Assembly (NCBI GenBank): GCA_038087875.1
Contig: CM075991.1
Coordinates: forward strand, 8,868,001 to 8,932,000
Reading direction: 5' to 3'
Origin: Malacoraja senta
Lineage: Eukaryota
DNA: 64,000 nt
Shown one piece after another: positions 3,257-46,130 of this stretch. Under the pieces are notes generated by a model. It was not told where the DNA came from, did not search any database, and was given only the letters and a program-made list of their open reading frames with translations. The position numbers and the translations under genes are program-made. Numbering within the stretch: position 1 is the first letter of the stretch; each line of letters starts with the position of its first letter.

Positions 3257-4135
3257 AGATAGATAGATAGATAGATAGACAGATAAACATTTATTGTGAC
3301 ATACACCAATTGGTGCAGTGACATTTGACTTGCCATGCAGCACACAAATAAAGATTACATCCAAGAATTTAACAACATAAAAACATCCCCCCACAATGGT
3401 TCCCACTGTGGGGGAAGGCAGCAAAGTCCAGTCCCATCCCCAGTTCACCCATAGTCGGGGCCTATTGAGGCCTCTGCAGTCGCCGATACGGCAGCCCGAT
3501 GCCTCAGGCCCTCTCGCCGGATGATGAAGCTCCGGCGTCGGGTGAACACTCTCGGCGGCCCGGAGTGTCTGGAGCGGCCGCCTCCTCCCAGTAGACCACG
3601 GCTCCCGAAGTCCACGAGCCGCGCTGGTCGATGCTCCGACTCTGGTGACCTCGTCGTGAGATCCCAGGCTCCACGGTGTTTGAAGCTCAGCGCCGCCCGC
3701 GGCTGGAAGCTCCGCAGACCGCAGACCGCTGACCGCAGACCGCAGACCGCAGCTCCGCGATGTTGGTGCCGGCTGTCACAGCACTCCGGAGCTTACTGCA
3801 CGGCGACCCGGGTTAGGCATCGCCCACTCCGCGATGGTACTTCAGCGCTGTGCCGCCGCCGAAGCTGAAGTCCTGGCCGGTCCCGGCAGGAAAACGCCGC
3901 TCCAGGCCGCGAGGAAGGGGCGAAGATACGGCTCGGAGAAAAGCCGCATCTCCGACCAGGTAGGGACTGCGAAAATAGTTTCCCCCTTCCCCCCCCCCCC
4001 CCCCAACCCCCCACATAAAAAGACTAAAGACCTCCAAAAACAAACACTTTTAACTAACTAAAAATTAAAAAAGGGTGAAAAAACTAACAGCTGCTGGCAG
4101 GGCAGCCATACTCGACGGCGCCCCAGGTGGCCTCA
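3257..4135 (-). mobile_element. GC-rich non-autonomous retroelement, copy A (Rex/Babar-like tail, (TATC)n end)
   Basis: Shared head GGGGCGCC..ATGGCTGCC, T-rich tract, G-run, GC-rich body, hairpin GCCTTCCCCCACAGTGG..CCATTGTGGGGGG, tail ..GGTGTATGTCACAATAAA. Confidence 0.75.
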
Positions 4136-4190
4136 GTCATGTTGTCCATAAAACCCCAGGGTTATGGTACAAATAGGTCTGGTTCACCAA

Positions 4191-4308
4191 AGATAGACAC
4201 AAAGTGATGGAGCAACTCAGCGGGTCGGGCAGCATCTCAGGAGATAATGGATAGGTGATGTTTCAGGTCGTCAACCGTCTTCAGACGTTGTTCCTTCTTC
4301 AGATATTT
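4191..4308 (-). mobile_element. Penelope-like terminal-repeat fragment
   Basis: AGATAGACAC..CTCAGCGGGTC..GCAGCATCTC..CTTCAGAC, flanked by duplicated TGGTTCACCAA (4180-4190 / 4309-4319). Confidence 0.65.
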
Positions 4309-4660
4309 TGGTTCACCAATGTCCTTCAGAGAGGGGATGAACATTGGTCTGGATTATTTAAGGGCCTGTCCCACTTACGCAACCTTTACGGGCGACTGCC
4401 GGCACCCATGATAGGTCGCCGAAATTTTCAACATGTTGAAAATTCTGCGGCGACCAAGAAGAAGCTACGACTCTTTGGAGACCTCCCACGACCAGAGGAG
4501 ACCTCACACAACCATACAGGCGACCCCTGGCGACACGCCAGGGGTCGCCTGTATGGTTGTGAGAGGTCTCCTATGGTCGTATGGTCGTGAGAGGTCACCT
4601 ATGGCCTGTATGGTCGTGAGAGCCTGTATGGTCACGAGAGGGCTCCTGTGGTGGTGAGAG

Positions 4661-4856
4661 ATGGTCACCGCAGGAGGATGAATATATTATAGATAAAAAT
4701 GTTAATATTTTAATTTGATAATTTTGTTTAAGTGTTTTTTAAATTGTGTGAGCTTTCTACTCTCCCTTGTAAATTGTAAATTTGTTTAAAAATCTAATAA
4801 AAAAAACATTTAGAGGAAAAAAAAAAAAATATATATATATATATATTTTTTTTAAA
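4661..4856 (+). mobile_element. poly(A) retro-insertion (L1-like 3' UTR)
   Basis: AT-rich, AATAAA then A-run/(AT)n, TSD TGGTGGTGAGAG (4649-4660 / 4857-4868). Confidence 0.65.
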
Positions 4857-4965
4857 TGGTGGTGAGAGGTCTCCAAAGAGTCGTAGCGTCTTTCTGGTCG
4901 CTGCTGAATTTTCAACATGTTGAAAATTTCGGCGACCTATCACGGGTGCCGGCAGTCGCCTGTAT

Positions 4966-5798
4966 GGCGGATGTGCAGGAGTGGGCGCCGTTTGTATGGC
5001 AGCCTGCCTGCAGTCCGTCGTCTAACTCTTTTATTGTTTGAATATTTTTTATTTTTTTATTATTTGGAGTCTATTCTTTCTATGTGGGGGGGGGGGAACT
5101 GTTTTAACCCCAGTCCTACCTGGTCGGAGATGCGGTTTTCCTCCGAATCGCGTCTCCGGTCTCCCCATGCGGCCTTCCATCGGGCTGGAGCGGCGTTTCC
5201 TGCCGGGGACCACAGCTTCGGCGGCACAGCGCTGGGACATCAGCAGGGAGCGGGCGATGCCTTGTCGGGTCGCCGCTCCGGAGTGCTGTGACCGCCGACC
5301 ACCAACATCGAGCAGCCGTGGTCTGCGGTCTGCGGTTTGAGGGCATCCCGCCACGGGCGGGCGGCGCTGGATCAAAAACACCGCGGAGTCGAAGCTCCAA
5401 CCGGCGCGGCCTGAAGTCCGCGGGCGTCGCAGTCTCCGGGGAAGGAGCGGCCGCTCCAGACATTTCCAAGCTGCTGAGGACTTTTCCACCCGATGCGGGT
5501 GGGCAAACAACATCGGGCTGGCGTTGTGGCGACTGGCTGCAGTGGCCTCAGACTGGCACCGACCTCGGGTGGACTAGGAGGAGGAGGAGGACTGGACATT
5601 TTAGTGCCTTCCCTCACAGTGGAGAGTGTAGATTCTACTGTGGGGGGATGTTCGTGTTTGTGTAAAATTTCTTATAGTGTGTTGTCATTTTTTCTATCTC
5701 TTTTTATCATTTGTTTGGTTAGTAACTGTAAAGCACTTTGGCTTTTGAGTTAAATCGATTGGAAAATGTGCTATATAAATAAACTTATTATTATTATT
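4966..5798 (+). mobile_element. GC-rich non-autonomous retroelement, copy B (L2-type tail)
   Basis: Same head and hairpin as copy A; tail TGTAAAGCACTTTG..GTGCTATATAAATAAAC(TTA)n resembles the L2 end at 56585-56646. Confidence 0.75.
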
Positions 5799-5844
5799 AA
5801 GTGGGACAGGCCCTTTGCCGGCTCTAGACTGACTTGACAACGTG

Positions 5845-6069
5845 TGTAGGAAGGAACTGCCGATTCTGGTTCAAACCGAAGATGGACACAAAATGCTGGA
5901 GTGACTCAGCGGGACAGGCAGCGTCTCTGGAGAGAAGGGATGGATGACGTTTCAGGTCGAGACCCTTCCCCAGTCTGAAGAAGGGTCTCGACTCGAAACG
6001 TCACCCATTCCTTCTCTCCAGAGATGCTGCCTGTCCCGCTGAGTTACTCCAGCATTCCGTGCCCATCTT
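5845..6069. mobile_element. Penelope-derived fold-back (palindromic) insertion
   Basis: Two inverted arms of about 95 bp around CAGTCTGAAG; imperfect TSD TGACTTGACAACGTG / TGACTTGAAAAAGTG. Confidence 0.75.
5973..6006 (+). ncRNA. minimal hammerhead ribozyme motif of a Penelope-like terminal repeat
   Basis: GT-CTGAAGA-A-GGGTC TC GACTC-GAAA-C-GTC-AC, i.e. CUGANGA, stem II, GAAA, GUC. Similar cores at 22019, 40901, 46343, 59945, 60528 (+) and about 15555, 34190, 51150 (-). Confidence 0.65.
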
Positions 6070-6633
6070 TGACTTGAAAAAGTGCTTGACTCTTCATTCC
6101 CAGCTGTATGGTTCTGTGACTCACCATCACCTCCTCAAGGGCACCAATGAAAGGGTAATAAATGGCGGCTATCTGCCCCCCCCCCCCCCCCCGCCATTAA
6201 AATCCAGTCATTGAAACAAAAAAGTCTTCTCATTTCAGCTTTGATGGGGGTCCTTCCCTTAGGGATTGGCCTTTTACCCAAATTATGCCATATAAATTTG
6301 AAAGAAGATGAAATAATTTTGACAAAAAGCTGCAGGTTCTTTCTCCCTGAGTTTTTTTTTTTGCAGAAATATTAGAACATAAATAAAACATCAGCTAACT
6401 TAGTTAAATAATTCACCAAACCTATTTTATTTTGGATCGCTCACGGTGCTGTCACTCTGTAAATAAAAGATGTAGCTTTTGACAATGTCACATTGCAAGT
6501 GTGACTCTGGCCTTTCACTCGAGTGCTGTGTGTGGGATGTGATGCAGAGTTGCGCAATCTGCCTCTTTGGTTGCCGCTGACACACGCGGTCACTTTAGTA
6601 ATCGAGAGCGGGACCTCGTTACCTGCTCCCGCG

Positions 6634-6872
6634 TTTAGTGCAGTTTAGAGATACAGCGCGGAAACAGTGCCCTTTGGCCGACTGAGTCCGCGCCCACCAG
6701 CGATCCCCACACACTAACACTGCGGGCACGGTGGCGCAGCGGTAGACTTGTCTGCCTTACGGAGACCCGGGTTCGATCCCGACTACGGGTGCTGTCTGTA
6801 CGGAGTTTGTACGTTCTCCCCGTGACCTGCGTGGGTTTCCTCCGAGATCTTCGGTTTCCTCCCACACTCCAA
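6634..6872. mobile_element. two partial HE1-like SINEs, head-to-head (tail on -, head on +)
   Basis: 6634-6722 is a reverse tail; 6724-6872 is head plus V-domain. Confidence 0.75.
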
Positions 6873-6889
6873 ATGACTATCCACGCAAT

Positions 6890-7190
6890 CCACATTGGGA
6901 TAGCCCCTGCCTCAACTACCTCCCTGGACAACTTGTTCCATACACCCACCATCCTTTGTGAGAAAAAGTTATCTCTCAGTTTCCTATTAAATCTTTTCCC
7001 CTTCAACTTAAACCTGCATCCCCTGGTCCTCGATTCACCTACTGTTGCCAAGGGTGTCTGTGCCTCTAGCTGATCTATTCCTCTTATGATTTTATATACC
7101 TCTACAAGATAACTCCCTCATTCTCATGCTCTCCAAGGTATAGAGTCATCCTCCCCCTATAGCTCAGACCCTCTAGCCCTGGCAACATCT
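6890..7190 (-). mobile_element. CR1 LINE 3' fragment
   Basis: Minus strand reads ..ESRTRGCRFKLKGKRFNRKLRDNFFSQRMVGVWNKL.., a CR1 ORF2 C-terminus. Confidence 0.8.
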
Positions 7191-7964
7191 GCTCAAATAA
7201 ATAAAAAAACACATTCTCAAGGGCAACTAGCAATGGGCTAGCAAATGCTGGCTGGGCCTTTGAAGCCTACTTTCCTTGAATGAATTATATTAAAAAAAGA
7301 AAGTCATCGGTCTGGGTTATATTTTCCGTTTCTAAAGAAGAAATAAACCTCACATCCTTTATCCAGCAGAGTGTGTGCTGAAATGTCCACATGGATTCTC
7401 TGCTAACACAATTCAGTTCCTCATTGTTCGCATTTCTGGATTATTATCATCATCTGGGGTCGGGGAAAGGGTCGGATAGAATCAAAAGCATCGCGTGCCT
7501 CAAAGCCGAGGCAGTTTCTCCTCATGCCTTATGCAGCCTTTCCATTTATAAACACCGTCCGGAGAGATAAGAATAAGAACAGAGACAGAATCCATCGCCG
7601 TTACTAAAATTCGCAGGCTCGTTGCAATTATCGTATGTCATTTTGAAGACTATATTCAGCGCTCCCATGACACTCTAATAGCAATGATCTTAGACTAACA
7701 AAGAAAAGCCCTGGTGTGGGATGGAGAAGAAATGCTTGTTATTCCACCCTGCGCCTTCCATTCTTTGTCAAGAAAGACATGCGTTTACTTGCAGCCTTTA
7801 GCAATTGCAGGGGCACGACAAAGTACACTGCAGTCTGCAAATGATAGTGGTGAGGGCCATATCATCAGACCCAACATTTTACAGAGGCTTTACTGTTGGA
7901 GATACTAACCTGCCAGAGAGAAGGTTTCCTCAGCAGGACATGGCAGACCTGAAGTGATTAATTG

Positions 7965-8272
7965 TCTGGGAAAGAACAGCAGATGCTGGTTTAAATCGAA
8001 GGTGACACAAAATGCTGGCGTACCTCAGCGGGACAGGCAGCATCTCTGGAGAGAAGGAATGGGTGACGTTTCTCTCCAGAGATGCTGCCTGTCCCGCTGA
8101 GTTACGCCAGCATTTTGTGTCTATCTAAGGGCAATAGAAGATTCAGCTTGTGTAGGAAACAAATGCAGATGCTGGTTTAAATCGAAGATAGGAGAAAGGT
8201 CTCGACCCGAAACGTCACCCATTCCTTCTCTCCAGAGATGCTGCCTGTCCCGCTGAGTTACGCCAGCATTTT
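7965..8272. mobile_element. tandem pair of Penelope-derived fold-back units
   Basis: Two units inside one TSD GTGATTAATTG (7954-7964 / 8273-8283). Confidence 0.7.
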
Positions 8273-8304
8273 GTGATTAATTGACTGATTGATTGTATCG
8301 TTGA

Positions 8305-8560
8305 CTTTGGTTGAGATACAGCGCGGAAACAGGCCCTTCGGTCCTCCGAGTCCCCGCACACTAGCACTGTCCTTCTCACCAGGGACAATTCACAATCTTT
8401 ACTAAAGCCAATGAACCCTAAATCCTGTACGTCTGGAGTGTGGGAGGAATCCGGAGCACCCGGGGAAAACCCACGCGGTCACGGGGAGAACGTGCAAACT
8501 CCGTACAGACAGCACCCGTGGTCAGGAACAAACCAGGGTATCTACCGCTGTGTCGCCCCT
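8305..8560 (-). mobile_element. HE1-like V-SINE
   Basis: V-domain and tail in reverse orientation. Confidence 0.8.
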
Positions 8561-8707
8561 TGATTGATTGATTGACTTTAAAAGTAATTCTTACAAAATA
8601 CTTGCTAATGTGTTTAAAAGTATACAAAACCATTTTGTACACGGACGTATACGGAGCCTACTTTTAATACTTAAATATTTTAAATCTAAATAAATCTAAA
8701 TATTTAA

Positions 8708-9250
8708 TGGTGGCACAGTAGTGCAGCGGTAGAGTTGCTGCCTTATACAGTAGCGCTTACTATAAGGTAAGATCCTGACTAAGGTGCTTGTCCGTGCGGA
8801 GTTTGTACGTTCTCCCCGTGACCGCGTGGGTTTTCTCCGAGATCTTCGGTTTCCTCCCACACTCCAAAGACGTGCAGGTACAGCTTTGTAGGTTCATTGG
8901 CTTTGGTATAAATGTAAATTGTCCCTAGTGTGTGTAGGGTAGTGTTAATGTGCGAGGATCGCTGGTCGGCGCGGACTCGGTGGGCCGAAGGGCCTGTTTC
9001 CGCGCGGTGTCTCTAAACTTAACTTTTTTTTTTTTTTTTTAAGAAGAAAAAGAAAAAAGTTAGATAATGAAAAATAGAAAAATGTGAGATATATAGTGTG
9101 TGAAAAAGAAAAATAAAGAATGAAAAAAGAAAGTTGAGACATAGAAAATAGAAGAAAGAGAATAAAAGAAGAGAAGAGAAGAAAAGAAAATAGAAGGAGA
9201 TCATTTATAATCTTGACCATCCGCAGTCTCTAAACTACACTGAACTAAAT
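8708..9250 (+). mobile_element. HE1-like V-SINE, tail interrupted by an L1 fragment
   Basis: Head GGTGGCACAGTAGTGCAGCGGTAGAG, V-domain, tail; insertion at 9020-9225. Confidence 0.8.
9020..9225 (-). mobile_element. L1 3' UTR fragment (prematurely polyadenylated)
   Basis: Matches L1 UTRs at 27514, 36459 and 47522; poly(T) 9024-9040; TSD GTCTCTAAACT (9009-9019 / 9226-9236). Confidence 0.75.
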
Positions 9251-13547: not shown

Positions 13548-14374
13548 CCGGAAGTGGCGGTGCTGCCTTGCAGCTGCGGCTCGCCTGCAGTCCGTTTGTC
13601 TTTTATTTTATTTTGTTTTCTTTTGTCCGTTGTTGCGGTTTGTTTTGGTTTATTTTAGTTGTGTATGTGTGGGGGGGGGGGGGGTGGGAGAAGCGTGTTT
13701 TTTGGCTCTTCCTTCGGGGGCCGGGGGGGGATGCGACCTTTCTTGCCGTATCCCCCGTCTCCGTCTCCGTCTGCGCTGAGGCCTATTGCGGAGCTGGCGG
13801 CCTCCAACTGGGACCGACCTCGGGGCTCGGGAGGCAGAGACAGCCGGGACTTGACAGCACGGGGCTGGCCGACTTCGGGGCTGTGTGGTGGTGTTGCGAC
13901 CCGACTTCGGAGCCTCGGGGGCTCGGCGAGGGCCAGTGGACGACATCGTCGGGAGCTCGCAGGTCACAGGTTGGTGACCTGTTTTTCCGTAGCTCCCGCA
14001 ACAACAGCTGCGTCCGCTGGACTGGAAGGGCGGCAGCTCTCGACCCGGCCAGGGGCAGCGGAGTTTGAACCGGCCCGTTCGGATTCAGCCGCGGGACTTA
14101 CTTACCATCACCCGGCGGGGTCACAACATCGGAGACTCTGGATCACCTCAGCGCAGAGGGAGAGCAAGGAGGGAAGAGACATGGACTTTGGGACTTTTTG
14201 CCTTCCATCACAGTGAGGAGGTGCCTGGTGGACTCACTGTGGTGGATGGTAAACTGTGTTGAGTGTGTGTTTTTGTTATTTATTCTATGTTATGACTGCA
14301 GGCTAAACCATTTCGTTGCACTGGAAAAGTGCAATGACAATAATTGAATCAAAATCAAAATCAAATCAAATCAA
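13548..14374 (+). mobile_element. GC-rich non-autonomous retroelement, copy C
   Basis: Starts CCGGAAGTGGCGG; hairpin CCATCACAGTGAG..CTCACTGTGGTGG; tail ATTTCGTTGCACTGGAAAAGTGCAATGACAATAA(AAATC)n; same subfamily as copy D. Confidence 0.75.
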
Positions 14375-17489: not shown

Positions 17490-17775
17490 CCAGATTCAGG
17501 GACAGTTTCTTCCCAGCAGTTATCAGTCAATTGACCCATCCCACCAACAACTAGAGAACAGTCCTGAGCTACTATCTACCTCACTGGAGACCCTCGGATT
17601 TCTTTGATCAGACTTTATCGCACTAAACATCATTCACGTTATTCCCCTTATCGTGTATCGGTACACTGTGGACGGCTCGATTGTAATCATGTATTGTCTT
17701 TCCACTGGCTGGTTAGCACGCAACAAAAGCTTTTCACTGTACCTCGATACACGTGACAATAAACTAAACTCAAAC
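17490..17775 (+). mobile_element. Rex1/Babar-type LINE 3' end
   Basis: RFRDSFFPAVISQL followed by tail ..CACTGTACCTCGATACACGTGACAATAAAC. Confidence 0.75.
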
Positions 17776-17950: not shown

Positions 17951-19884
<1,934 letters not shown>

Positions 19885-20367: not shown

Positions 20368-20522
20368 GTTGTTGGTAGGATGGTTTAGTTGCCTATTCAT
20401 TGTGGACGGCGCGATTGTAATCACGTTTTGTCTTTGCGCTGACTGCTTAGCACGCAACAAAAACTGTTCACTGTACCTTGGTACACGTGATAATAATAAT
20501 GAATGAATGAATGAATACTTGA

Positions 20523-21073
20523 AGGCTCTGTCTTACGGTGTTTGCGGTCATCGGCGGTGAAGCGCGGCTTCGCCTGTAGAGTGGACCGCACGGCAACGGC
20601 GAGAGCGCCGAGCCTATGCCACGGGAGCGCTGCACGAATGCTGCGCGGGGGCCGAGTGATTTAAATACGGCTGGTCCCACGTGCTTGCGGTAAGTTTAAA
20701 AAAGGGCGGGCCGACTGCGATGACGTCGGCACGCCGCACGTGACTCACTAGCGGCGGCTGTGGCGGCGGCCGTCCTGATCGCGGCGCTGTAGCGGTGGCT
20801 GTGCCGGCGGCCGTGCCGCACACGTGCCTCACTGGCGGAGGCTGTGGCGGTGCAAGTTCGACGCACGGCGCTCGAGCCACACTGGTGGAGGCTGTGCGGT
20901 AGGGACATATTTTTGAACAGTGTTGGTTTTATTTTAGCACCATGCGGTGTTGGGAACAACGCCGCACGGCCCCGGAATTGTGCGTTTGACCGAGTGCGCG
21001 GTCTATGGCGGCCCAGGAGCGGTAGATTCTTCCCGTTTCGCCGCCAATGACCGCAGACTCGTGAGGCAGGCCT
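20523..21073. mobile_element. CpG-rich Harbinger-like MITE
   Basis: Imperfect TIRs of about 40 bp (AGGCTCTGTCTTACGGTGTTTGCGGTCATCGGCGG / CCGCCAATGACCGCAGACTCGTGAGGCAGGCCT), flanks TGA/TTA; splits a repeat that is intact at 32908-33135. Confidence 0.7.
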
Positions 21074-22696
21074 TTAACTGTCACATGTAACAAGTCACAG
21101 TGACATTATTTGCTTGCATACCCAAGGTGTGCAAATAGTGGTCACATAAAGGGCGCTGCCAAAGTTACAATGTATACACAATATCCGCACTAGATCCCCT
21201 TTTGTTCTCCCTCCCCCTCACGGCAGTCCCCCCATGCCAGGACCTCCTTTGTTCCTTCCTATTTGTTTCTTCAATAAACTAAACTGGACTGAAAAAATAA
21301 TTTTCATGTTGGCCCCTGGAGGGTTGAAGTCAGTGTCCTTTCCGTTAACACTGCGCACACGGGAGATTGAACTGAAGCCTGCATGGTCCAATTGCACACA
21401 AGACATTTACAGTGGCTCACTGAGCCAACGGCATCACCCTTGGTGTTGTTGAGATGCTGCAGTGGGACTGGTTGACAGGATAATTACACCAGCTGGGACT
21501 CTGCCGAGGGATCGCATTGAGCTATTACACTCATCGATCCACACAACTGCGCACTCATTGGGGAAAGTTGTGCCGCAGTTTGTGATGAAGGCGTTGGAAA
21601 GCATTCACACGGAGATTACGCCGATATCATTACACTGCAATCTGCAGACCGGTTGTCGTCAGAGAGTGCTACAGTGTGGACACAGGCCCTTCGGCACAAC
21701 TTGCCCACGCCGGCCAACATGTTCCAGCTACACTAGCCCCACCTGCTTGCATTTAGTACATATCACTCCAAACCTGTCCTATCCATGTACTCTCCCCTCA
21801 CCCACCTTCATCCCCAAAGCCTGGGCACAATGGACAACAACATTGCCACAGAAGGCTGTGGAGGCCAAGTCAGTGGATATATTTAAGGCAGAGGTAGTAG
21901 ATTCTTGATTAGTGCGGGTGTCAGGGGTTATGCGGAGAAGGCAGGAGAATGGGGTTAGGAGGGAGAGATAGATCAGCCATGATTGACGTGTAGTAGACAT
22001 AGGTAGGAAGGGTAGGGTCTGAAGAAGGGGCTCGACCCGAAACGTTACCCATTCCTTCTCTCCAGAGATGCTGTCTGTCCTGCTGAGTTACTCCAGCATT
22101 TTGTGTCTACCTTTGTGTAGGAGACTTGATGGGCCAAATGGCCTAATTCTGCTCCTGTGACTTATGAACAATGTCCCTTAGATAGACACAAAGTGCTGGA
22201 GTAACTCAGCAGGTCAGGCAATGCAGGAAGGGCCGATATAAGGTAGGGTTATGTAGGAAGGAACTGCAGATGCTGGTTTATCCCAAAGATAGACACAACA
22301 TGCTGGAGTAACTCAGCGGGTCACGCAGCACCTCTGGAGAAAAGGAATGGGTGACGTTTCAGGTCGGAACTCATCTACAGACTGAAAGCTGGCGAAGGCC
22401 AGAACAAGATAGGGTCGGCCACAGATGACTTCAGGAAGGGTGGAGTCCATAATGACCCATTGTTGGCTGTCTAAGGACAGGGATATAATATGCTGACAGT
22501 GAACTAGTTCACTGGTGGTGGAGGCAGATAGAGACCTAGAAACATACAGCATGAAAACAGGCCATTCAGCCCAACTCATCCATGCCGACCAGGATGCCCC
22601 ATCTAAGCCAGTCCCATTTGCTTGCGTTTGGCATAAATATGATAGAACATAGGACAGCACAGCACAGGAATGGTGCGTGACATTTAAGAAACAGAC

Positions 22697-23971: not shown

Positions 23972-24873
23972 AGGGCCTGTCCCACTTAGGCGACTCTTTA
24001 GGTGACTTCCAGGGACTAGTTTTAATGGAATTCACCTACGACACCTGGCGACAACCTACGTCAACCTACGACAACCTACATGTGAGACCACCAGGGGCGC
24101 TGGGGAGATGGCCAGCCCTGCCGGCAGTCCGTTCTATTTTTCATCTTTTGTTATTTTTAGCGCCTGTTAAGAGTTTGTTTTAATGTTCTACGGTTTGGTT
24201 TATGTGGGGGATCGGGGGAAACTTTTTTTCAAGTTCTTACCTTCCCGGAGATGTGATCATTTTTCGGATCACATTCTCTGGGCGCTCTGCGGCCTACCAT
24301 CGCTGGAGCTGGGAGCCGCCTCGGACTGTCGTGAGCCCCACCGCGGGGCGCGGACTTAAAAATCGGAGCGGATCCCTTGCCTGGGATCGCTCCCACCGTG
24401 GCCTGCGGATTTGCCATCAAGGTCTCGCAGTCACGGGAGACGCTAGTCGGGAGCTCCAACGCCGCGGAATGTTCGACCAGCTCCGACGCGAGGTTCGATC
24501 GCCCGGCGCGGGGGAGCTGACAACCCCCCCTGATGCAGGAGCTGATCGCCTCAACGCGGAGGGCCCGAACGCCGCCGGCTATGGGAGTCAAGATCGTCCC
24601 GTCAACGGAGGGCTCGAGGCCCCTGACCGAGGAAGAACAAAAGGGAAGGCCTTGAACTTTATTTAGCCTTCCATCACGGTGAGGAATGTCACTGTGGTGG
24701 ATGTTCATGTTAAAATGTGTTTTTGAGTCTGTTGCTTTTAATTGTATGACTGACCTGGCCAGTGAAATTCCTCGTATGTTGCAAATCATACTTGGCGAAT
24801 AAAATCTGATTCTGATTCTGATTCTGACAACCTACGACAGCAAATTTTTTTGCCATTGTAGCCAAAAAAATTC
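23972..24873. mobile_element. Harbinger-type MITE (one TIR lost), interrupted
   Basis: TTA+AGGGCCTGTCCCACTTAGGCGAC; reverse relative of 1280-1478; resumes at 24827 with ACAACCTACGACAGC. Confidence 0.7.
24081..24826 (+). mobile_element. GC-rich non-autonomous retroelement, copy F ((TCTGAT)n tail)
   Basis: Head CCACCAGGGGCGCT..ATGGCCAGCC, hairpin CCATCACGGTGA..TCACTGTGGTGG, tail ..CATACTTGGCGAATAAAA(TCTGAT)n. Confidence 0.75.
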
Positions 24874-31497: not shown

Positions 31498-32540
31498 TAG
31501 GTATGTTACAAAACTTACCTTCAGTCGCGCTGTAATTCTGCCACTGGCCGTGTGCGCGATTTTGGCACCTTTAAGGGGGGGGGGCGGGGTTAAAACGCGG
31601 TTTCTCCTCCCTTGTCCTGAATTATATTTCGTTGGAGTACAAGCGTTGGCTGAAGAATCGTTCTTAGCGACGTTTTGTGAATTTTTTATTTTTATTAAAT
31701 CGTCAATGTCAGCGCTAGAGTAATTTTAAAAGCAGCTCCTGAAGCGTCAACGCCGATAACGGGGACAGATTTCACACACGGGACAGGTAAACGAAAGTGG
31801 TTTCTTTAAATGTATAAAAGTGCTTCTTAAGAAGCCTTTAATTCACATTTTTTCATGCGACACGGTGATTTTATTCCCCGAACTAACGGCAGTATTTTTC
31901 ATGCCAATACGGGGTTAAATTCACCGCAAATGAACGTTCCAAAAGATCGCATTCCAGAAATCCTCACTCGCAAGATGATTTAAATGCCCATTAATTTACA
32001 GGTATTAAACATTCAATTCCTTCCATTTGGCCTGTAAATTCATGAAAATGAGATTTAAAAATTATGTTATATTGTGAATTATTGTGTGAATGTTATTTGG
32101 ACACTTAGGCTATTTAAAAATGTTAATCTATTCTTAAGAAATTGATAGATGTTTAGATCTAGTAATTGAATTTTGTAATTAGCTACAATTAGGTAACTAA
32201 CTAATTATATGCTTTACTTTCATGTCTTCTAAGTAAGATTGTTTCATACTTGTTTCAGAATGCTTCAATCTATAATAACTGAAAATTTCTTTCAGTTATC
32301 TTAATTTTTAAGAAAGTTATGGGCTTTTAACTGTCCTCGATCACAGCTTTTGTGTTAAGTCAATGGAAAAGCAATAGGGAACAAGATGCTAATTTCCGAG
32401 TATGAAAATGGCCATAACTTCTTTAATACTGAAGATATGAAAGTGAATTAGGTGTCAAATTAAACTTCTTTTTATGCTTTATCTGATGGGATAAATTGCA
32501 GACTTTATTTTTAAAATCTCAAAATTTTGTAACATTACTA
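31498..32540. mobile_element. non-autonomous DNA transposon with TAG..CTA termini and 7-bp TSD (hAT-like)
   Basis: TIRs TAGGTATGTTACAAAA / TTTTGTAACATTACTA; exact TSD CTGAATT (31491-31497 / 32541-32547); no transposase ORF. Confidence 0.75.
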
Positions 32541-32907: not shown

Positions 32908-33135
32908 TGAATGAATGAATGAATGAATGAATGAATGAATGAATACTTTATTGTATTGACAAGTCACAGTGAAATTCTATAATTGCACACCCAAGGTATG
33001 CAAATAGTGGCCGCATAAAGGACACTGACAAAGTTACAAAGTATCCCGCTCCAGACCATTTTGGTACTCCCCCTCCACCCCCCCACCCCCCCTCCCACAT
33101 GGCGGTCCATCCATGCCGTGTCCTCCTTTGTTCCG
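32908..33135 (-). mobile_element. retroelement 3' end with (ATTC)n tail
   Basis: Second copy at 20500-20522 + 21074-21260, split by a MITE. Confidence 0.55.
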
Positions 33136-33205
33136 GCGGCGCAATCTCTGGCTCTGTCCAACGCAGGTTAGCTGACTTCTCCCAAAAAGAGCATTGTTGA
33201 CAGGC

Positions 33206-33914: not shown

Positions 33915-34597
33915 AGGCAGTATGGTGGTGCAGCGGTAAAGCCTGAGCGGCGGGCTGCCCGTAGCGGCGATTGCGGAGGCCCCAGCCACGGGTAAACATC
34001 AAGGAAGATGACTGACTTTGGTGCCTTCACTCAAAGTGGGAGACTTTTGATTCTGCTGTGTGGGGATGTTTTATGTTGAACTCTATCAACTCTATGGTAC
34101 ACAAAAATGCTGGAGAAACTCAGCGGGTGCAGCAGCATCTATGGAGCGAAGGAAATAGGCAACGTTTCGGGCGAAAACCCTTCTTCAGACTCTATCAACT
34201 CTATGTTGTGTCCAATTTTATGGAATGGCTGTATGGTGATCACATTTCACTGTGCCAACCGGCACATGTAACAAATAAATATATCTTGTATCTTGTATCT
34301 TGTAAGTTGCTGCCTTGCAACACTTACTGCGCCGGAGACCCGGGTTCGATCCTGACTACAGGTGCTGTCCATCTGGAGTTTGCACGTTCTCCCCGTGACC
34401 TTCGTGGGTTTTCTCCGAGAACTTCGGAATCTTCCCTCACTCCAAAGACCTACAGGTTTGTAGATTAATTGGCTTGTTATGAGTGTACAATGGCCCTAGT
34501 GTGTGTAGGATAGTGTTAGTGTGCGGGCATCACTGGTCGGTGCGGATTCGGTGGGCTGAAGGGCCTATTTCCGCGCTGTATATCTAAACTAAACTAA
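33915..34597 (+). mobile_element. HE1-like SINE containing truncated GC-rich element copy G (33941-34301), itself containing a Penelope-terminus fragment (34097-34188)
   Basis: SINE head split at GCGGTAAAG/GTAAGTTGCTGCC; inner TSD ACTCTATCAACTCTATG (34080-34096 / 34189-34205). Confidence 0.75.
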
Positions 34598-37908: not shown

Positions 37909-38445
37909 GAAGTCAAGTCAAGTGAGTTTATTGTCATGTGTCCCTGATAGGACAATGAAATTCTTGCTTTGCTTGAGCACAACAGAACATAGTAGGCATT
38001 TACTACAAGGCATTCTATAAATATATACACAATGGTCAATATACTGATAAAGTGCAAATAACAGTATTGGCTAGTAAAGTTCAGTGTTATGTCCGAGCCA
38101 GGTTTAATAGCCTGATGGCTGTGGGGAAGTAGATGTTCCTGAACCTGGTCGTTGCAGTCTTCAGGCTCCTGTACCTTCTACCTGAAGGTAGTAGGGAGAT
38201 GAGTGTGTGGCCAGGATGGTGTGGGTCCTTGATGATACTGCCAGCCTTTTTGAGGCAGCGACTGTGGTAGATCCCCTCGATGGAAGGGAGGTCAGAGCCG
38301 ATGATGGACTGGGCAGTGTTTACTACTTTTTGTAGTCTTTTCCTCTCCAGGGCACTCAAGTTGCTGAACCAAGCCACGATGCAACCGGTCAGCATGCTCT
38401 CTACTGTGCACCTGTAGAAGTTAGAGAGAGTCCTCCTTGACAAAT
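37909..38445 (-). mobile_element. Rex1/Babar LINE 3' fragment
   Basis: LSNFYRCTVESMLTGCIVAWF..RKRLQKVVNTAQSIIG..IIKDPHHPGH..LLPSGRRYRS..FPTAIRLLN; tail GACAATAAAC..(CTTGA)n. Confidence 0.9.
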
Positions 38446-38895
38446 GCAAAGGAAAAGCCTTGCTTTTTCAATGCTTCAAAAATCCATGGCTTGAAACCAT
38501 CAGCTCCTGAAGGTTTATTTATTTTTAAACTAGTTATTTTCTCCATTAACTTTTTTAAAATTAATTAAATCTTGCAAGTTCTTCCTCATGATTAACTTTC
38601 TTCTCGCCATCTACTGGGAAATCAAAAATAGACTTGTGTATTTGTGTCATTTCAGGGCATCCTAACGCACTTCATTGCCATGGAGTTGACTTTTGTTTTG
38701 CAGTCACTGTTGCAAGGAAGGAAACCTATTTGCGTTTCGCTAGATTCCACAAACACCAATGCAACGTGGACCTAGGAATCAGTGGTACAGAACGAGGCGA
38801 AACAACAATTCCGGACATCAACCACTTTCTTCTTCAACATCTTATGCTGAGAACGAAGCATTTGGAGGCCATTTCATAAGCGATAGGAGCAGAAT

Positions 38896-39045
38896 CAGGG
38901 CAGCAGTTTGGGAGAAGTCCTTATTTGTTTGGCACAGGAGTTGCAGTTCGTCCAATTTGTTGTTGAGGGAACGTAGATTTGCAAGGAATATACATGGGAG
39001 CGGTGTGCGTAATTCTCGTTGCCTGAGTCGGACGAGTGCTCCAGA
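38896..39045 (-). mobile_element. Rex1/Babar endonuclease N-terminal fragment
   Basis: RTPLPCIFLANLRSLNNKLDELQLL..NKDFSQTAAL. Confidence 0.7.
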
Positions 39046-39182
39046 GAGATTTGGTGTGAGTATACATTCAACATAGACAGGACCCAAGGTCAGGATTGAA
39101 CCCAGGAACTGTGAGGCAACATGTCAATGGGATCATTTATTTTTGCCTTGGAAGCGAAATGTATTTTTTGTATTTGATCACA

Positions 39183-39522: not shown

Positions 39523-39546
39523 CCTGGTTTAACCCCTTGCCCTTAA

Positions 39547-39865
39547 TGGGGCTGTCCCACTGTACGAGCTAATTCAAGAGTTCCCCCAAGTTTCCCCTGA
39601 TTCTAACTCGGAGAATTACGGTAATAGCCGCTCGTAGGTACTCGGGGCTCTAGTGGACATTTTTCAAACATGTTGAAAAATATTCACGAGTCTTCACGAG
39701 CTTACCGCGTTTCCCAAGTACCTGCCGTTAGCGTTACGAGCCGCTAAGAGACGTCCCGAGCTCCGACTTACCCGCTACGTACATTCTACGTGCTTACCAC
39801 GAGTTTGATTTTTTTTTTTAACTCGGGAGAGCTCTTGAATTAGCTCGTACAGTGGGACAGCCCCT
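39547..39865. mobile_element. Harbinger-type MITE
   Basis: TIRs GGGGCTGTCCCACTGTACGAGCTAATTCAAGAG, TSD TAA/TAA. Confidence 0.85.
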
Positions 39866-39870
39866 TAAGA

Positions 39871-40082
39871 CAGGGGTTCCCAACCATTTTCATCCCAGGC
39901 AACTTTAATAGCACGTGGCAATGTTATTTCACTTATTTATGAACTACTAATGATGAACAGATACCAGACACAGTCGGTCAATGAGAAAAAATATGTCCAA
40001 ATCCATAATCAACAAATTTACCCCCTGAATGGGTGAAATTTACCCCCTGGGGGGTAAATCTTCCCCAGGTTGGGAACCCTTG
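39871..40082. mobile_element. hAT/Charlie-type MITE
   Basis: TIRs CAGGGGTTCCCAACC / GGTTGGGAACCCTTG; 8-bp TSD CCTTAAGA / CCCTAAGA with central TA. Confidence 0.8.
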
Positions 40083-41011
40083 CCCTAAGAGAACACCTTC
40101 CTCAGCACAGCAATACATCGGGACTACCCTGAGATCTTGAATCTGAGCACTAAATCCAAGCCTAATTGGCCTTGAACCCTTGACATTCCGTCTCCCAGGT
40201 GTGGCTGCAATCCCACAGAGGCACAGCTGGGACCTGAGTACACTTGAGTAATTATTTAGCAGGTCCTGTTATTCCTTGATTTTCAATGACAACATCTGTA
40301 CCCACAATCTAACAGGAACGTTTAATTATGAAAGTGTTTGAGAGACAGCAAGATAGATAATTCCCACTGACTGGCAAATCAACAACAAGAGGCCATGAAT
40401 AGACGATTAGCATCAGAAGGTTCAGAATATTTTTTTCATGGTAAGAATCTTTTTTTAGTGCAGAATATGTTAATATTAAAAGTGAGTGACTCATGAGTTC
40501 TGGGAGGGAAGTTGTCAAATGAAAATAGAAAAAATATTAATGGATATAGGGAAAGAGAAAAGAAAACTGATAAACCAAAGGTCAGAAGAAGGTTCCTGAC
40601 CCAAAATGTCACCTATCCCTATCCCTTTTCTCCAGAGATGCTGCCTGACCCATTGAGTTACTCCAGCACGTTGTGTCTATCTTTGGTATACACCAGCATC
40701 TGCAGTTCTTTGTTTCCACAATATATACATAGAGACTGCCACAAGGAGGGGTTAGCACCAGCCTGATGGGCTAAATAGCATTGGTTAACATTGACTTCTC
40801 CAATGTCAGGTAGTCCTTGCTTTCTCCCTCCTTCCCCTCCCCTTCCCAGCTCTCCCACAAGCCTACTGGCTCCGCCTCTTCCTTTCTTTTTGACATCAGT
40901 CTGAAGAAGGATCTCGACCCGAAACGTTGCCTATTCCTTCATTCCATAGATGCTGCCTCACCCGCGGAGTTTCTCCAGCTTATTTGTCTACCTTTGGTAT
41001 TTGTTTGGTTA

Positions 41012-41307
41012 AGTTTAGCTTAGTTTAAAGATACAGCACAGAAACAGGCCCTTCGGCCCGCCCTGTCCGCACTGACCAGCGATCTCCACTCACACTCCAC
41101 TATCCTACACACTAGGGACAATTTTACATTTACCAAGACAATTAACCTACAAACCTGTACGTCTTTGGAGTGTGGGAGGAAACCGGAGCAAAACCCACGC
41201 AGACCACGGGGAGGGGGACGTACAAACTCTGTTCAGACAGCACCCGTAGTCAGGATCGAACCCGGGTCTCTGGTGCTGGAAAGCAGCAGCTTTACCGCTG
41301 CGCCCAC
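41012..41307 (-). mobile_element. HE1-like V-SINE
   Basis: Full reverse copy. Confidence 0.85.
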
Positions 41308-41408
41308 TTGCTTTGCTTCGTCCTGTCCCCACCTTTCTTTTCCAGTTTTCTCCCCCCTACTCCATCTGTCAGAAGAAGGATCTCAAACGGAAACGTCGTC
41401 TGTCCGGT

Positions 41409-42031
41409 CAATAGACAATAGACAATAGACAATAGGTGCAGGAGTAGGCCATTTGGCCCTTCGAGCCAGCACCGCCATTCAATGTGATCATGGCTGATCA
41501 TCCCCAATCAGTACCCCGTTCCTGCCTTCTCCCCATATCCCCTGACTCCGCTATCTTTAAGAGTCCTTTCTAGTTCTCTCTTGAAAGCATCCAGAGAACC
41601 GGCCTCCACTGCCTTCTGAGGCAGAGAATTCCACAGACTCACCACTCTCTGTGAGAAAAAGTGTTTCCTCGTCTCCGTTCTAAATGGCTTACTCCTTATT
41701 CTTAAACTGTGGCCCCTGGTTCTGGACTCCCCCAACATCGGGAACATGTTTCCTGCCTCTAGCGTGTCCAAAACCCTGAGCAATCTTATACGTTTCAATG
41801 AGATCCCCTCCCATCCTTCTAAACTCCAGAGTGTACAAGCCCAGCTGCTCCATTCTCTCAGCATATGACAGTCCCGCCATCCCGGGAATTAACCTTGTAA
41901 ACCTACGCTGCACTCCCTCAATAGCAAGAATGTCCTTCATCAAATTAGGGGACCAAAACTGCACACAATACTCCAAGTGTGGTCTCACTAGGGCTCTGTA
42001 CAACTGCAGAAGGACCTCTTTGCTCCTGTAT
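41409..42031 (-). mobile_element. CR1 LINE 3' fragment (frameshifted)
   Basis: YRSKEVLLQLYRALVRPHLEYCVQFWSP..EGVQRRFTRLIPGM..; (CAATAGA)n tail. Confidence 0.9.
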
Positions 42032-42269
42032 TTGATTCCCTCCCCTCCCCAAAGATTGCCTGACCCTCCTGCACTTTGCTTTTTGCTTCTCTTCATTCAT
42101 TTGTCCGCAGGATGTGAGGGGTTGCTGGTACAGAACGCGCTGTCTGAGTTTAATGATCCCTTCGCTGAGATCGCTGTGCAAAGCCACAAACCAGAACAAG
42201 CTTCCCTCCTTTGAAGGCCACGAGTGGAGGAAATAAAACAGATTGACGGGCCAGGCAATGGAGAGAGAA

Positions 42270-42380
42270 ACAAAGTTAACATTTTAGAAACAGAATTAAC
42301 ATTTCAGAAACAGAGTTAGGGCTTAGAAGACAGAGTTGGTGCTTCAGAAATAGAATAAGAGCTTCAGAATCGGAGTTAAG
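42270..42380. repeat. degenerate minisatellite of about 20 bp
   Basis: About six units like AGAAACAGAGTTAACATTTC. Confidence 0.6.
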
Positions 42381-42516
42381 ACCTTTTATCTCCCAGATTT
42401 GATGAAAGACCGTCAACCTGAACAGTTCATTCTGTTTCTCTTCCAACAGATGTTGCCTGATTTCAAGGATTTTCTAGTTGGAAAAACAACCTACTGTTTT
42501 TCCGCAGGCGGGCTTA

Positions 42517-42742
42517 CGGGCCTGTCCCACTTTCATGACCTAATTCACGACCTCTGCCGAGTTTGCCCTTGACTCATACTCGCAGCATGGTCGTCACGAG
42601 GTCGTAGGAGGTCGTAGGAGGTCGTGATGCTAGTCGTAGGTACTCGTGGCATCAAGTAGGTCGGGGCGTTTTTCTAGCCTGATGAAAAATGTCCACGAGT
42701 AAAAAAGGTCATGAATTAGGTCGTGAAAGTGGGACAGGCCCT
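42517..42742. mobile_element. Harbinger-type MITE
   Basis: TIRs GGGCCTGTCCCACTTTCATGACCTAATTCA / TGAATTAGGTCGTGAAAGTGGGACAGGCCC, TSD TTA/TTA. Confidence 0.85.
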
Positions 42743-42967
42743 TTAGGATTGAGGAGCCTTGCTGGATGGATGAAGGTGTGGACCTGACGTTGTGATCCGG
42801 TGGAATGTGGGACTGATCCCGAGGGGCAAATTGTCCATTTAAAATTCCAATGCTTCATCCTACACTACAACAAAGGTATACACGGTGAAAGGTAATTGGT
42901 GTAACTAAGTGAAAAGAATTTCAAATTGGACCTTCTCCTTAACTGCAACATTCCTTTTCCCCATGGT

Positions 42968-43270
42968 TAAGACTTTAGACTTCAGAGATACAGCGTGGAA
43001 ACAGGACCCTGCGGCCCATCGTGTCCACGCGGACCTATGATCACCTCATCGACCAGCACTATCACACACGCCAGCGACAAGTTAACTATTTCACCGGCGT
43101 CAATTGATTTACACACCTGTATGTCTTTGGGGAGTGGGAGGAAACCGGAGCACCCGGAGAAAACCCACAGGGAGAACGTACAAACGCCTTACAGACAGAC
43201 AGCAGCCGTGGTCAGGATCGAACCTGAGTCTCTGGCGCTGTAAGGGAGCAGCTTTACCGCTGCGCCACTG
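42968..43270 (-). mobile_element. HE1-like V-SINE
   Basis: Reverse copy. Confidence 0.8.
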
Positions 43271-43501
43271 TAGCTCGAGTGGATGTCTCCTTCCCTTCTG
43301 AGTCAAACGTTGCAGGTTGAAAGGCCCACTGTAGAGACTTGAGTGCAGAAATCTAGACTGACCAAGACTGAAGGGAGGAAGTGGTAGGGGCAGGTGCAAT
43401 TACTACATTTAAATACACAAGGAGAGGTAGACACCAAGAACTGCAGATGCTGGTTTACAAATAAAGACACAAAGCGCTGGATTAACTCAGCAGGTCCATG
43501 A

Positions 43502-44760
43502 CTTCTTCTTCTGTCGTGTGTCTTTCAGACCTGCAGCTCCGTTGAGGCGAGCCAGGCCAACGTGTCATCGTCCAGGTCAATCACACCTCGTTCACCATTC
43601 GGTGGCTGGTGTTTGGGGCAACTGGTGACTATGTGTGGGCTCCACCGTCTGTGTTGGGTCCCCACACTCGCAGGAGGCACTCGCTGTCCACGTGGCCCCA
43701 CCTCTTCATCGCTACTCCATAGCGTCCGATGCCTGTCCTCAGCGGTTGAGGGTTGTCCACTGTTTTCGGGGCAGGTCCTGGCCAGGGACGTCCATGGGGT
43801 CATCGATGTAATGGTGTAGCCTAGATGGTTCCGCTGACTTAGAGATTCCTTTATTTGTCATTCAGACCTTTCGGTCTGAACGAAATTTCGTTGCCTGCAG
43901 TCATACATACAATAATAAATAACAAAACACACAATAAACACAAATTAATATCCACCACAGTGAGTTCACCAGGCACCTCCTCACTGTGATGGAGGCAAAA
44001 GTCTTAAAGTCTCTGTCTCTTCCCTCTTTGTTCTCCCTCTGCGCTGAGGCGATCCAGGCTTCTGATGTTGTGACCCCGCCGGGTGATGGTAAGTCAGTCC
44101 CGCGGCTGAATCCGTGCTCAGTCCGCGACGGGCCGGTTCAAACTCCGCGGCCCGGGGTGGCCGAAGCTGCCGAAGCTGCCGCCCTCCAGTCCAGCCGACG
44201 CAGCTGTAGTTGCGGGAGCCCCAGAAAAACAGGTCACCAACCTGGGACCTGCGCGCTCCCGAAGATGTCGTCCACCGGGCCCGCGGCCGAGCCTCCGGAC
44301 TCAGGTCGCCACCAGTGTCCTCGGTCGCCACCGCCAGAACGCCACCGCAGCCCCGGAACGCCGGAACGCCACCGCAGCCCCGAGGCCGGCCAGCCCCGCG
44401 CTGGTAAGTCCTGGCTCTGCCTCCGGAGCCTCGAGGTCGGTCGTTCGGTTGGAGTTGGAGGCCGGCAGCTCCGCCATTTTGGCCTCAGCGCAGACGGAGG
44501 CAGAGAAGGGGGATACGACAGAAAAAGTCGCATTCCCCCGAAGGAAGAGACAAAAGTCATGTTTCACCCCCCCCACCCCACACATACACAACCCAATAAA
44601 CTAAAATTTAACTAAAACAGGACAAAAGAAAACAACAAAAAAAGTAAAAACAGACGGACTGCAGGCGAGCCGCTGCTGTAAGACAGCGCCGCCACTTCCT
44701 ATCGATTTCCACTGGTCTCTCCATCTAGTCTTGACCCAGGCGGCCTTAGAAGCGTCCATG
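43502..44760 (-). mobile_element. Ingi/Vingi-like LINE 3' fragment split by GC-rich element D
   Basis: KAAWVKTRWRDQWKS (44701-44760) joins AEPSRLHHYIDDP..WTTLNR.RTGIGRYG..CECG..HIVTSCPKHQPPNGERGVIDLDDDTLAWL; tail CACACGACAGAAGAAGAAG. Confidence 0.7.
43841..44699 (-). mobile_element. GC-rich non-autonomous retroelement, copy D
   Basis: Starts GGAAGTGGCGGCGCTG; body similar to copy C; terminal hairpin TTCAGACC-GAAA-GGTCTGAA before AATAAA. Confidence 0.8.
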
Positions 44761-45286
44761 ACCATAAGATATAGGACCATAATTGGGCCATTCGTTCCAT
44801 CAAGTATGCTACATCATTCAATCATGGCTGATCGATTTCTGTCTCTCATCCCCATTCTCCCAATAACTGATGCCCTTTCCAATCAAGGGTCAGGAGGCAT
44901 CAAAGGTGACTTTGTACGTTCGCTCCATAACATGCGTGGGTTTTCTCCAGGATCTCCAGTTTCCTCCCACACTCTACAGACACACCGTTTTGTAAGCTAA
45001 TTCACTTGGTATAATTGTAAATTGTCCCGAGTGTGTTTAGGATAGTTTTAAGTGTACGGGGATCACTGGTCAGCACGGACCTGGTGGGCCGAACGGCCTG
45101 TTTCCACGCTGTATCTCTAAACTAAACTAAACTAAACTCAGGGCAGATGACTGTAGTCAATTAACCTACCGTACACCTGAGATGTAATCAGAGCACCTGG
45201 GGGAATCCCATGTATATAAGGGAGAACATTGTTGTGATTGAGGCCTCACCGTCTGAAATGACTATGAATGCAAATTCAATAATAGC

Positions 45287-46130
45287 ATTGAATTGAATTG
45301 AATTAGACTTTATTAATCCCCTTATTCAGGGGAAATTCAGAAGTCCTTGCAGCACACTAATAAAATACAACATGGTATTAAAAAGTTCAACACCAAAACA
45401 TCCCCCCACAGTGGGTCCCACTGTGGGGGAAGGCACAAAGTCCAGTCCCCATCCTCTTGTCCACCCAGAGTCGGGCCCACTGAGGCCTCCACAGTCGCCG
45501 CCACGGCGCCCGATGTTCTCGCCGGGTGATGGTGCTCCGGCATCGGGAGAACCCCCAGCGGATTGGGGTACCAGGAACGACCAGCGTCCCACCGAAGACC
45601 GCGGCTTCCAAGCCAACAGACCGCGCCGGACGGAGCTCCACACACTGGCAATCTCAGCAAGAGATCCCAGGCTCCGGGATGTAACGTTCAGCGTCGCAGC
45701 TGGGCCGCTCCACAGAACCGCTGCTCCACGATGTTCTCATCGGCGGTCCCAGCATACTGGAGTTCCAGCGCGGCGGCCCAGGAAAGGCATCGCCCGCTCC
45801 ACGACAGCGCTCCAGCGCTGCACCGCCGCCAAAGCCGATGTTCAGCGCCGCCGCCAAAGCCGATGTTCTGGCCAGGTCCCCTCAGGGAAACGCCGCTCCA
45901 GGACCCGCTGGTAGGCCGCAAGGACAGGTCGAAGGCGCTGCTCGGAGGAAGGCAACCCCTCCGACCAGGTAGGGACTTGAAAAGCAGTTTCCCCCTTCCC
46001 CCCCCACCACCGCCCACACATAAAAAGATTAGGCCCCCTGACTACACACTAAACGTACTAAAAATAATAAAAAAGAAGGGAAAAAAACGGACAGCTGCAG
46101 GACAGGCAGCCGTTCTGGACAGCGCCTCCT
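45287..46130 (-). mobile_element. GC-rich non-autonomous retroelement, copy E (Rex/Babar tail type 2)
   Basis: Hairpin CCCCCACAGTGG-GAC-CCACTGTGGGGG; tail AATTTCCCCTGAATAAGGGGATTAATAAAGT(CAATT)n. Confidence 0.75.

What the first reader, a model, noticed from the sequence alone, without database searches (positions are those of the whole stretch)
3257..46130. One GC-rich non-coding retroelement body fitted with interchangeable LINE tails
Seen: six elements of about 750-880 bp share a layout (A 3257-4135 -, B 4966-5798 +, C 13548-14374 +, F 24081-24826 +, D 43841-44699 -, E 45287-46130 -). The layout is a GGCGC..GC(C)TGC(C)AG..CCG head, a T-rich tract, a G-run, a CpG-rich body and a GCCT(T)CC hairpin. 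Copy G (33941-34301 +) is 5'-truncated and keeps only the hairpin region and tail. The last ~100 bp differ. B ends like the L2 at 56585-56646. E ends like the Rex/Babar at about 51820. A and G end like the Rex/Babar tail at 17731-17763. C, D and F have other stem-loops. Terminal microsatellites also differ (TATC, TTA, AAATC, TCTGAT, TATCTTG, CAATT). There is no tRNA A/B box; C starts with an ETS-like CCGGAAGTG and D with GGAAGTG. Known: L2- and Rex-type RTs recognise their own 3' tails, and SINE superfamilies swap tails. Inference: a probably Pol II-driven non-autonomous superfamily that has repeatedly switched partner LINE across clades.
Basis: partly seen in the sequence, partly recalled or inferred. 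Interest (0 to 1): 0.75.

Follow-up and report, generated by a model that had tools for sequence, protein, structure and literature searches.

The report
Rex1-headed non-coding retroposons, swapped tails
These skate- or ray-like repeats are protein-free passengers of the Rex1/Babar jumping gene: they keep its start and usually its end around an unrelated GC-rich middle, and one of them has taken the end of a different jumping gene (L2), a type of derivative I did not find described for Rex1.

Summary
The seven elements are real and share a layout, but the reading changes. The head is not anonymous: it matches the extreme 5' end of Rex1/Babar LINEs. Five teleost-type Rex 5' ends, scanned over 3,196 window tiles, ranked all six heads in the top 30; 120 control sets never came near. 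Six of seven tails carry the Rex/Babar stem-loop signature; only B ends like L2. The GC-rich core is non-coding and forms three lineages (A/B/E, C/D, F), with little detectable homology between them; a 13-bp hairpin before the tail is shared by all seven. Best reading: a probably Pol II-transcribed, non-autonomous superfamily descended from a Rex 5' end, moved in trans by Rex proteins, exchanging tails between Rex lineages and at least once with L2. B-specific tail sequence is repeated in a related genome run. Kojima 2018 lists only RTE, Ingi, Vingi and R2 as sources of such elements. Repbase and Dfam could not be searched, no host genome was held, and no earlier finding of this scan matched.

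The parts
3257..4135 (-). Element A (A/B/E group), Rex-type tail, TATC repeats
4087..4122 (-). Head of A, homologous to Rex1/Babar 5' end (top tile of 3,196 for L003 and L005 queries)
3978..4086 (-). T-rich tract, then TATG and G run of A
3490..3977 (-). Post-G-run block and CpG-rich non-coding core of A
3382..3419 (-). Conserved hairpin of A
4965..5797 (+). Element B (A/B/E group), inserted in the inverted repeat of a MITE-like element; about 9 host bases replaced, no target duplication
   Evidence: (joints 4964 to 5798)
5606..5653 (+). Conserved hairpin of B
5727..5797 (+). L2-type tail of B with TTA repeats
13548..14374 (+). Element C (C/D group); head top tile for Rex L012; hairpin 14200-14251; Rex-type tail stem near 14310-14345
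24080..24825 (+). Element F (third group); hairpin 24666-24706; Rex-type tail; TCTGAT repeats
24070..24079 (+). Left copy of a probable 10-bp target duplication of F (right copy 24826-24835)
   Evidence: sister element at 1359-1448 holds one copy at the site; the host has 10-mer tandem units, so not certain
33941..34301 (+). Element G, 5'-truncated; hairpin from 34023; Rex-type tail; inserted in a SINE head
34097..34188 (+). SINE piece inserted into G, flanked by a 16-17-bp duplication
43841..44699 (-). Element D (C/D group); head top tile for Rex L011; hairpin 43946-43996; Rex-type tail; interrupts a coding LINE fragment
45287..46130 (-). Element E (A/B/E group); hairpin 45396-45434; tail of the 50.6/51.8-kb Rex lineage type
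55419..56646 (+). L2-type LINE 3' part (RT domain) whose end resembles B's tail
   Evidence: clade label L2 from recalled motifs, and low identity to Rex proteins (26-44%)
51430..51855 (+). Divergent Rex/Babar 3' end (C-terminus 34-41% identical to Rex proteins); second copy 50596-50807 on -
37930..38450 (-). Rex1/Babar 3' end with ORF C-terminus and tail stem-loop
17490..17780 (+). Rex/Babar 3' end family (also near 253-522, 35190, 36060, 20412-20496); reads SFFPAVI at the ORF end

Best explanation
A superfamily of non-autonomous, non-coding retroposons descended from Rex1/Babar LINEs. Each keeps about the first 100 bases of a Rex element (the GGCGC...ATGGC head and T-rich tract), then a G run and a CpG-island-like core unrelated to Rex coding sequence, a conserved hairpin, and a LINE 3' tail. 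Shown: head homology, no coding signal, tail types, shared hairpin. Inferred: RNA polymerase II starts at the Rex-derived head, helped by the CpG-rich core (T runs of 4 or more within 130 bases would stop Pol III, from general knowledge); the RNA is bound at its tail stem-loop by the reverse transcriptase of a Rex (or, for B, L2) element and inserted by target-primed reverse transcription; template switching during that step replaces the tail downstream of the hairpin, so sister bodies carry tails of different Rex lineages (A versus E) or of L2 (B).
For: Five Rex 5' ends (36 nt) rank the six heads 1, 14, 17, 20, 22, 30 of 3,196 tiles; best of 60 shuffled and 60 GC-matched ORF control sets reached worst ranks of 188 and 363, geometric means 103 and 81.5 against 12. 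The two Rex 5' ends fixed by breakpoints between independent insertions each pick a head as top tile (L003: A; L012: C). Tail signature (ATTTC, stem-loop, AATAA, microsatellite) is shared by ORF-linked Rex ends L001, L003, L005, L009, 37984, 50673 and by A, C, D, E, F, G, not B. A's tail is 84% identical over 32 nt to the L001 Rex tail. B matches A and E at z 4-29 in head, post-G block, core, pre-hairpin and hairpin, but not in the tail (z -0.9, 0.9). Core indels are multiples of three in 14 of 69 cases; no Pfam family in 15 of 15 core ORFs scanned. Hairpin pairs in 95.5% of 89 cells, 3 of 13 pairs with two-sided change. In run X1, B-specific T tract (41-51k) and tail (31-43k) have similar summed depth against 12-100 for single listed contigs, with 11 contigs sharing a variant at 5708.
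Against: The reverse test was weak: element heads found a Rex 5' end as best hit in 2 of 6 cases, with scores no higher than background; a profile of the heads gave best E 0.27. One of five Rex queries (L008) picked no head in its top six. Three of the five Rex start points were placed by eye at the ORF start. The Rex loci are teleost-like contigs from metagenomes, not from the host; no full-length host Rex DNA was seen. Between-group core homology is not shown, so common descent rests on head, post-G block and hairpin. The two main two-sided hairpin changes split by lineage and may be one event. No listed contig spans B's hairpin and tail together (7,830 pieces were not shown), and summed depth is no copy number. 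Only F shows a probable target duplication. No transcription data.
Confidence: 0.62

Rival explanations
1. Each group is a plain internal-deletion derivative of a chondrichthyan Rex/Babar lineage that has a long GC-rich UTR; core and hairpin are that UTR, and only B is a chimera.
For: Head and tail both come from Rex in 5 of 6 full-length copies; this is how RIME, Bov-A and RTE-N elements arise (PMC5786205). Host full-length Rex DNA could not be examined.
Against: In the five Rex families whose 5' ends were read, the ORF begins at the head with no long UTR; none of 17 Rex loci matches core or hairpin; Rex 3' ends in the window lack the hairpin motif (7 matches, all in the elements).
Confidence: 0.24
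2. One reading: one SINE-like body with its own Pol II head, independent of any LINE 5' end, that has repeatedly changed partner across LINE clades.
For: Shared layout and hairpin; an L2 tail on B; C and D begin with an ETS-like word (sequence; motif name recalled). GC-rich promoter words such as YY1/ETS sites (recalled) could resemble Rex starts by convergence.
Against: Heads match Rex 5' ends far beyond controls, and different heads match different Rex families; T tract and spacing also agree (TATG 97-108 bases from the head in elements, the Tyr codon of the YDR-like motif 111-121 in Rex); 6 of 7 tails are Rex type; cores split in three.
Confidence: 0.08
3. The three groups arose independently from different Rex families and captured unrelated GC-rich sequences; the likeness is due to shared Rex ends only.
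For: Core z-scores between groups are mostly under 3; heads match different Rex families.
Against: TATG + G run and the hairpin, which were not found in any Rex locus, are in all groups at matching places; hairpin z between groups 2.0-8.2, post-G block of F against A/B/E 5.5-10.4.
Confidence: 0.06

Closest known systems
Bipartite ORF-less non-autonomous LINEs (RIME from Ingi, NARTc, Bov-A, RTE-N, Vingi derivatives; PMC5786205, main text read)
   Same: Keeps the 5' and 3' ends of a LINE, no ORF, probably Pol II, moved in trans.
   Different: Parent is Rex1/Babar, not among the four clades listed there (RTE, Ingi, Vingi, R2); a 500-600-base middle with no match to the Rex loci examined; tail replaced, once by L2.
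Rex1/Babar LINEs (PMC6274825 section 2 read; PMC13343379 passages: no ORF1, highest coverage in rays among others)
   Same: 5' head, T-rich tract, 3' stem-loop and microsatellite end.
   Different: No endonuclease or reverse transcriptase; G run, CpG core and hairpin are absent from the Rex loci examined.
SINE superfamilies with conserved bodies and exchanged tails (CORE, V, Deu; CmiSINE and SacSINE1 of cartilaginous fishes, PMC5499810 passages)
   Same: Modular build, conserved internal element, tail switching between partner LINEs.
   Different: No tRNA, 5S or 7SL head, no A/B box, T runs near the 5' end, longer; head is LINE-derived.
GC-rich-headed SINEs of unknown origin (mentioned in PMC5786205, citing Suh et al. 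2016; original not read)
   Same: GC-rich non-Pol III front part on a LINE tail.
   Different: Those are RTE-linked bird elements by that account; here the extreme 5' end is traceable to Rex.

Membership tests
SINE (tRNA/5S/7SL-headed) | Pol III small-RNA head with A/B boxes | tested here: not met
   0 Rfam matches, 0 tRNA genes, no A or B box in 6 of 6 heads, T runs in all six
SINE (tRNA/5S/7SL-headed) | LINE-derived 3' tail | tested here: met
SINE superfamily with known conserved domain | Body homologous to CORE, V, Deu, Ceph or Meta domain | not testable with these tools
   No Repbase, Dfam or SINEBase sequences were available
Bipartite non-autonomous LINE | 5' end from a LINE 5' end | tested here: met
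   weaker in reverse
Bipartite non-autonomous LINE | 3' end from the same LINE clade | tested here: met
   6 of 7 copies; not met for B
Bipartite non-autonomous LINE | No coding capacity | tested here: met
Bipartite non-autonomous LINE | Whole element explained by internal deletion of one LINE | tested here: inconclusive
Autonomous Rex1/Babar | Single ORF with APE and RT | tested here: not met
   tblastn of 47 proteins against the elements gave only short chance-like hits, best E 0.001 and out of register
Non-LTR retroposon (any) | Insertion marks of target-primed reverse transcription | tested here: inconclusive
   5' truncation of G, 3' microsatellites in 6 of 7, probable 10-bp duplication at F; none at B; none established for A, C, D, E, G
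Pol II-transcribed element | Transcription start at the head | not testable with these tools
   Only contigs were served

The most novel reading that the evidence does not exclude
An old, undescribed superfamily of tripartite retroposons spread across several cartilaginous fish genomes: a Rex1/Babar promoter head fused to a captured CpG island and a conserved RNA hairpin that marks the point below which tails are exchanged, letting the element move between Rex lineages and to L2. It would be a Pol II counterpart of SINE superfamilies, would locate the Rex1 promoter in about 100 bases that overlap the ORF start, and would scatter thousands of CpG-island promoters through these genomes.
Probability: 0.4. 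Interest if true: 0.72.

Novelty: new variant of a known kind. Interest (0 to 1): 0.56.

Why it matters
It would add Rex1/Babar to the short list of LINE clades that give ORF-less derivatives, and give a live example of the step proposed in PMC5786205, where a LINE-derived element loses the link between its 5' and 3' parts by tail exchange. What the elements keep from Rex points to the cis-acting signals of a little-studied but widely transferred LINE and makes them testable. High-copy 800-base CpG-rich units matter for repeat annotation and for methylation and promoter studies in skates and rays.

Tried and rejected
No host genome held. Hairpin pattern: 0 matches in viral, genome and metagenome contigs. 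Rex queries found no relatives in viral or genome contigs. No RNA holder listed for 43700-46300; no conclusion on expression. In runs X3, X4, X8 the bin 5674-5704 of B had no cover while core parts were covered; this is absence of cover only and is not used to date the L2 tail. Coding body or ORF1-only element: rejected; protein searches with three core ORFs gave 0, 0 and 2 hits, the two being unrelated multi-stretch matches to PKD and FlaF-like proteins; these searches were length-limited as their outputs state. Head profile by nhmmer not significant. The match of B's tail at 32340 ties the L2 score but lies in AT-rich DNA without the stem or end: chance. The tail-signature pattern is loose: it gave 31 window matches, many unrelated, and matched E and the 50.6-kb end from a shifted start, so the reading rests on inspection. 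A CTCF-like word before the heads of A and F is one G short of the recalled core: not pursued. Literature: 9 searches showed no description of Rex-derived non-autonomous elements; the library lacks most subscription papers and Repbase Reports. Earlier scan findings: none by sequence or place; eight by words were bacterial and unrelated.
Full report
Setting. The window is repeat-rich vertebrate DNA; a Rex fragment in it is 82% identical to a Leucoraja erinacea sequence and its other cartilaginous-fish hits are rays and a shark, so a skate or ray is likely (inference). No genome was held.

Observation. The seven copies align. Pairwise BLAST joins A, B and E over about 800 bases (61-68% identity with gaps) and C with D (76%); between groups only the first 230-280 bases and the hairpin region hit. 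Segment scores against locally shuffled sequence show cores related within groups (z 11-48) and barely between them (z -0.4 to 4.6). The hairpin motif occurs 7 times against 0.11 expected. Its 13-pair stem is paired in 95.5% of cells, above 500 of 500 shuffles, with three two-sided changes, two of which separate A/B/E/G from C/D/F; with seven related sequences this is support, not proof. Cores are 65-68% GC with CpG near expectation and non-coding: 14 of 69 indels are multiples of three, 15 core ORFs have no Pfam match, and Rex proteins do not align.

The head. From recall I suspected the head resembled teleost Rex1/Babar starts and noted this before having Rex DNA. An alignment of four Rex N-termini retrieved 17 metagenome loci with fish-type Rex elements. 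Independent insertions fixed two 5' ends (L001/L003, L010/L012); three more were placed at the ORF start by eye (L005, L008, L011). Their first 36 bases were scored against 3,196 window tiles: the top tile was an element head for L003 (A), L005 (A), L012 (C) and L011 (D); L010 tied E at the top; L008 picked none. Averaged over five families, the six heads ranked 1-30; the best of 60 shuffled and 60 GC-matched ORF sets had worst ranks 188 and 363. The reverse test was weaker (2 of 6, against 0 of 60 core pieces and 2 of 90 shuffles) and a head profile was not significant. In four of five Rex families a T-rich tract follows the head and encodes the N-terminus; the elements keep the tract but no ORF. 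L011 begins with a word equal to the YY1 consensus as I recall it, and C and D with an ETS-like word; both labels are recalled, not tested.

The tails. ORF-linked Rex ends (L001, L003, L005, L009, window 37984 and 50673) share an ATTTC-stem-loop-AATAA ending, and so do A, C, D, E, F and G. A's tail is 84% identical over 32 bases to L001's. E's tail is closest to the 50.6/51.8-kb ends, whose ORF end is only 34-41% identical to the Rex proteins, so sister bodies A and E carry tails of distant Rex lineages. C and D keep the same frame with different stems. B alone ends like the L2-type LINE at 56.6 kb: score 37.5 against a shuffle maximum of 30.5 in 2,000, best non-self of 9,136 windows, same stem topology; its tail is unrelated to those of A and E while its other parts are related.

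Other genomes. Contigs of 4 of the 24 listed runs, coded as four organisms, were laid on B at 80% likeness. All four hold many contigs on the core (1,426-3,089 laid per run, flanks included). In X1 cover is continuous through the B-specific tail at a summed depth like that of the B-specific T tract and far above single contigs, then falls off after 5798; this suggests a repeated L2-tailed subfamily, but depth is no copy number and no listed contig spans hairpin and tail. Joints across the site show the empty host element with about 9 bases that B replaced, and no duplication. F has a probable 10-base duplication by comparison with a sister host element.

Mechanism. Shown: Rex-derived head, non-coding CpG core, shared hairpin, Rex or L2 tails. 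Inferred: Pol II initiation at the head (no Pol III boxes, early T runs), tail recognition by the partner's reverse transcriptase (stringent 3' recognition is described for several LINEs including eel L2 in PMC3747384, passages read; I saw no such test for Rex1), insertion by target-primed reverse transcription, and tail exchange by template switching. The role of the hairpin and the origin of the core are open.

Comparison. PMC5786205 (parts 1-4 of 5 read; supplement not read) names RTE, Ingi, Vingi and R2 as the only clades reported to give ORF-less bipartite LINEs and proposes that tail exchange can uncouple their 5' and 3' parts. PMC13343379 (abstract and passages; supplements not read, and their element libraries may hold these repeats) reports Rex1 lacking ORF1 and abundant in rays, with no occurrence of 'non-autonomous' in the main text. 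PMC5499810 (passages) and PMC6274825 (passages, section 2) describe no such element. Nine searches found none; Repbase and Dfam were not searchable, so an existing unnamed or database-only entry is possible.

Verdict. A real family, best filed as a new variant of non-autonomous LINE derivatives: works like a bipartite LINE derivative and swaps tails like a SINE superfamily, but is not a SINE, and membership among plain bipartite elements is undecided until host Rex elements are examined. Interest 0.56.

Noticed in passing
window 20540-21075 (+): GC-rich island with short GC repeats; ranked 2 and 3 in the Rex-head scan but has no homology to the elements. Unexplained; could be another element or a promoter.
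   Followed up: partly
window 38875-39045 (-): Fragment of a Rex N-terminal region about 430 bases upstream of a Rex 3' end, without its head; possibly two separate pieces.
   Followed up: partly
window 34097-34188: SINE piece inserted inside G with a 16-17-bp duplication; G itself sits in a SINE head.
   Followed up: yes
window 4360-4964, 23993-24079, 1359-1466, 39542-39869, 55053-55433: MITE-like elements with related inverted ends; B and F both inserted into such elements.
   Followed up: partly
window 43640-43840 and 44700-44790 (-): D interrupts a reading frame that looks like an RTE-type LINE C-terminus (label recalled).
   Followed up: partly
window 21080-21260 and 32950-33140: Two similar stretches that follow TGAA-type or TCACA-containing repeats and may be minus-strand 3' ends of a further Rex-like family.
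   Followed up: no
L001, L003, L005, L008, L011, L012 5' ends: Rex1/Babar ORFs start at the very 5' end of the element, and four of five families begin with a T-rich tract encoding a mostly hydrophobic N-terminal stretch before a YDR-like motif; function unknown to me.
   Followed up: partly
window 17951-19882: A 1.9-kb AC-type microsatellite.
   Followed up: no
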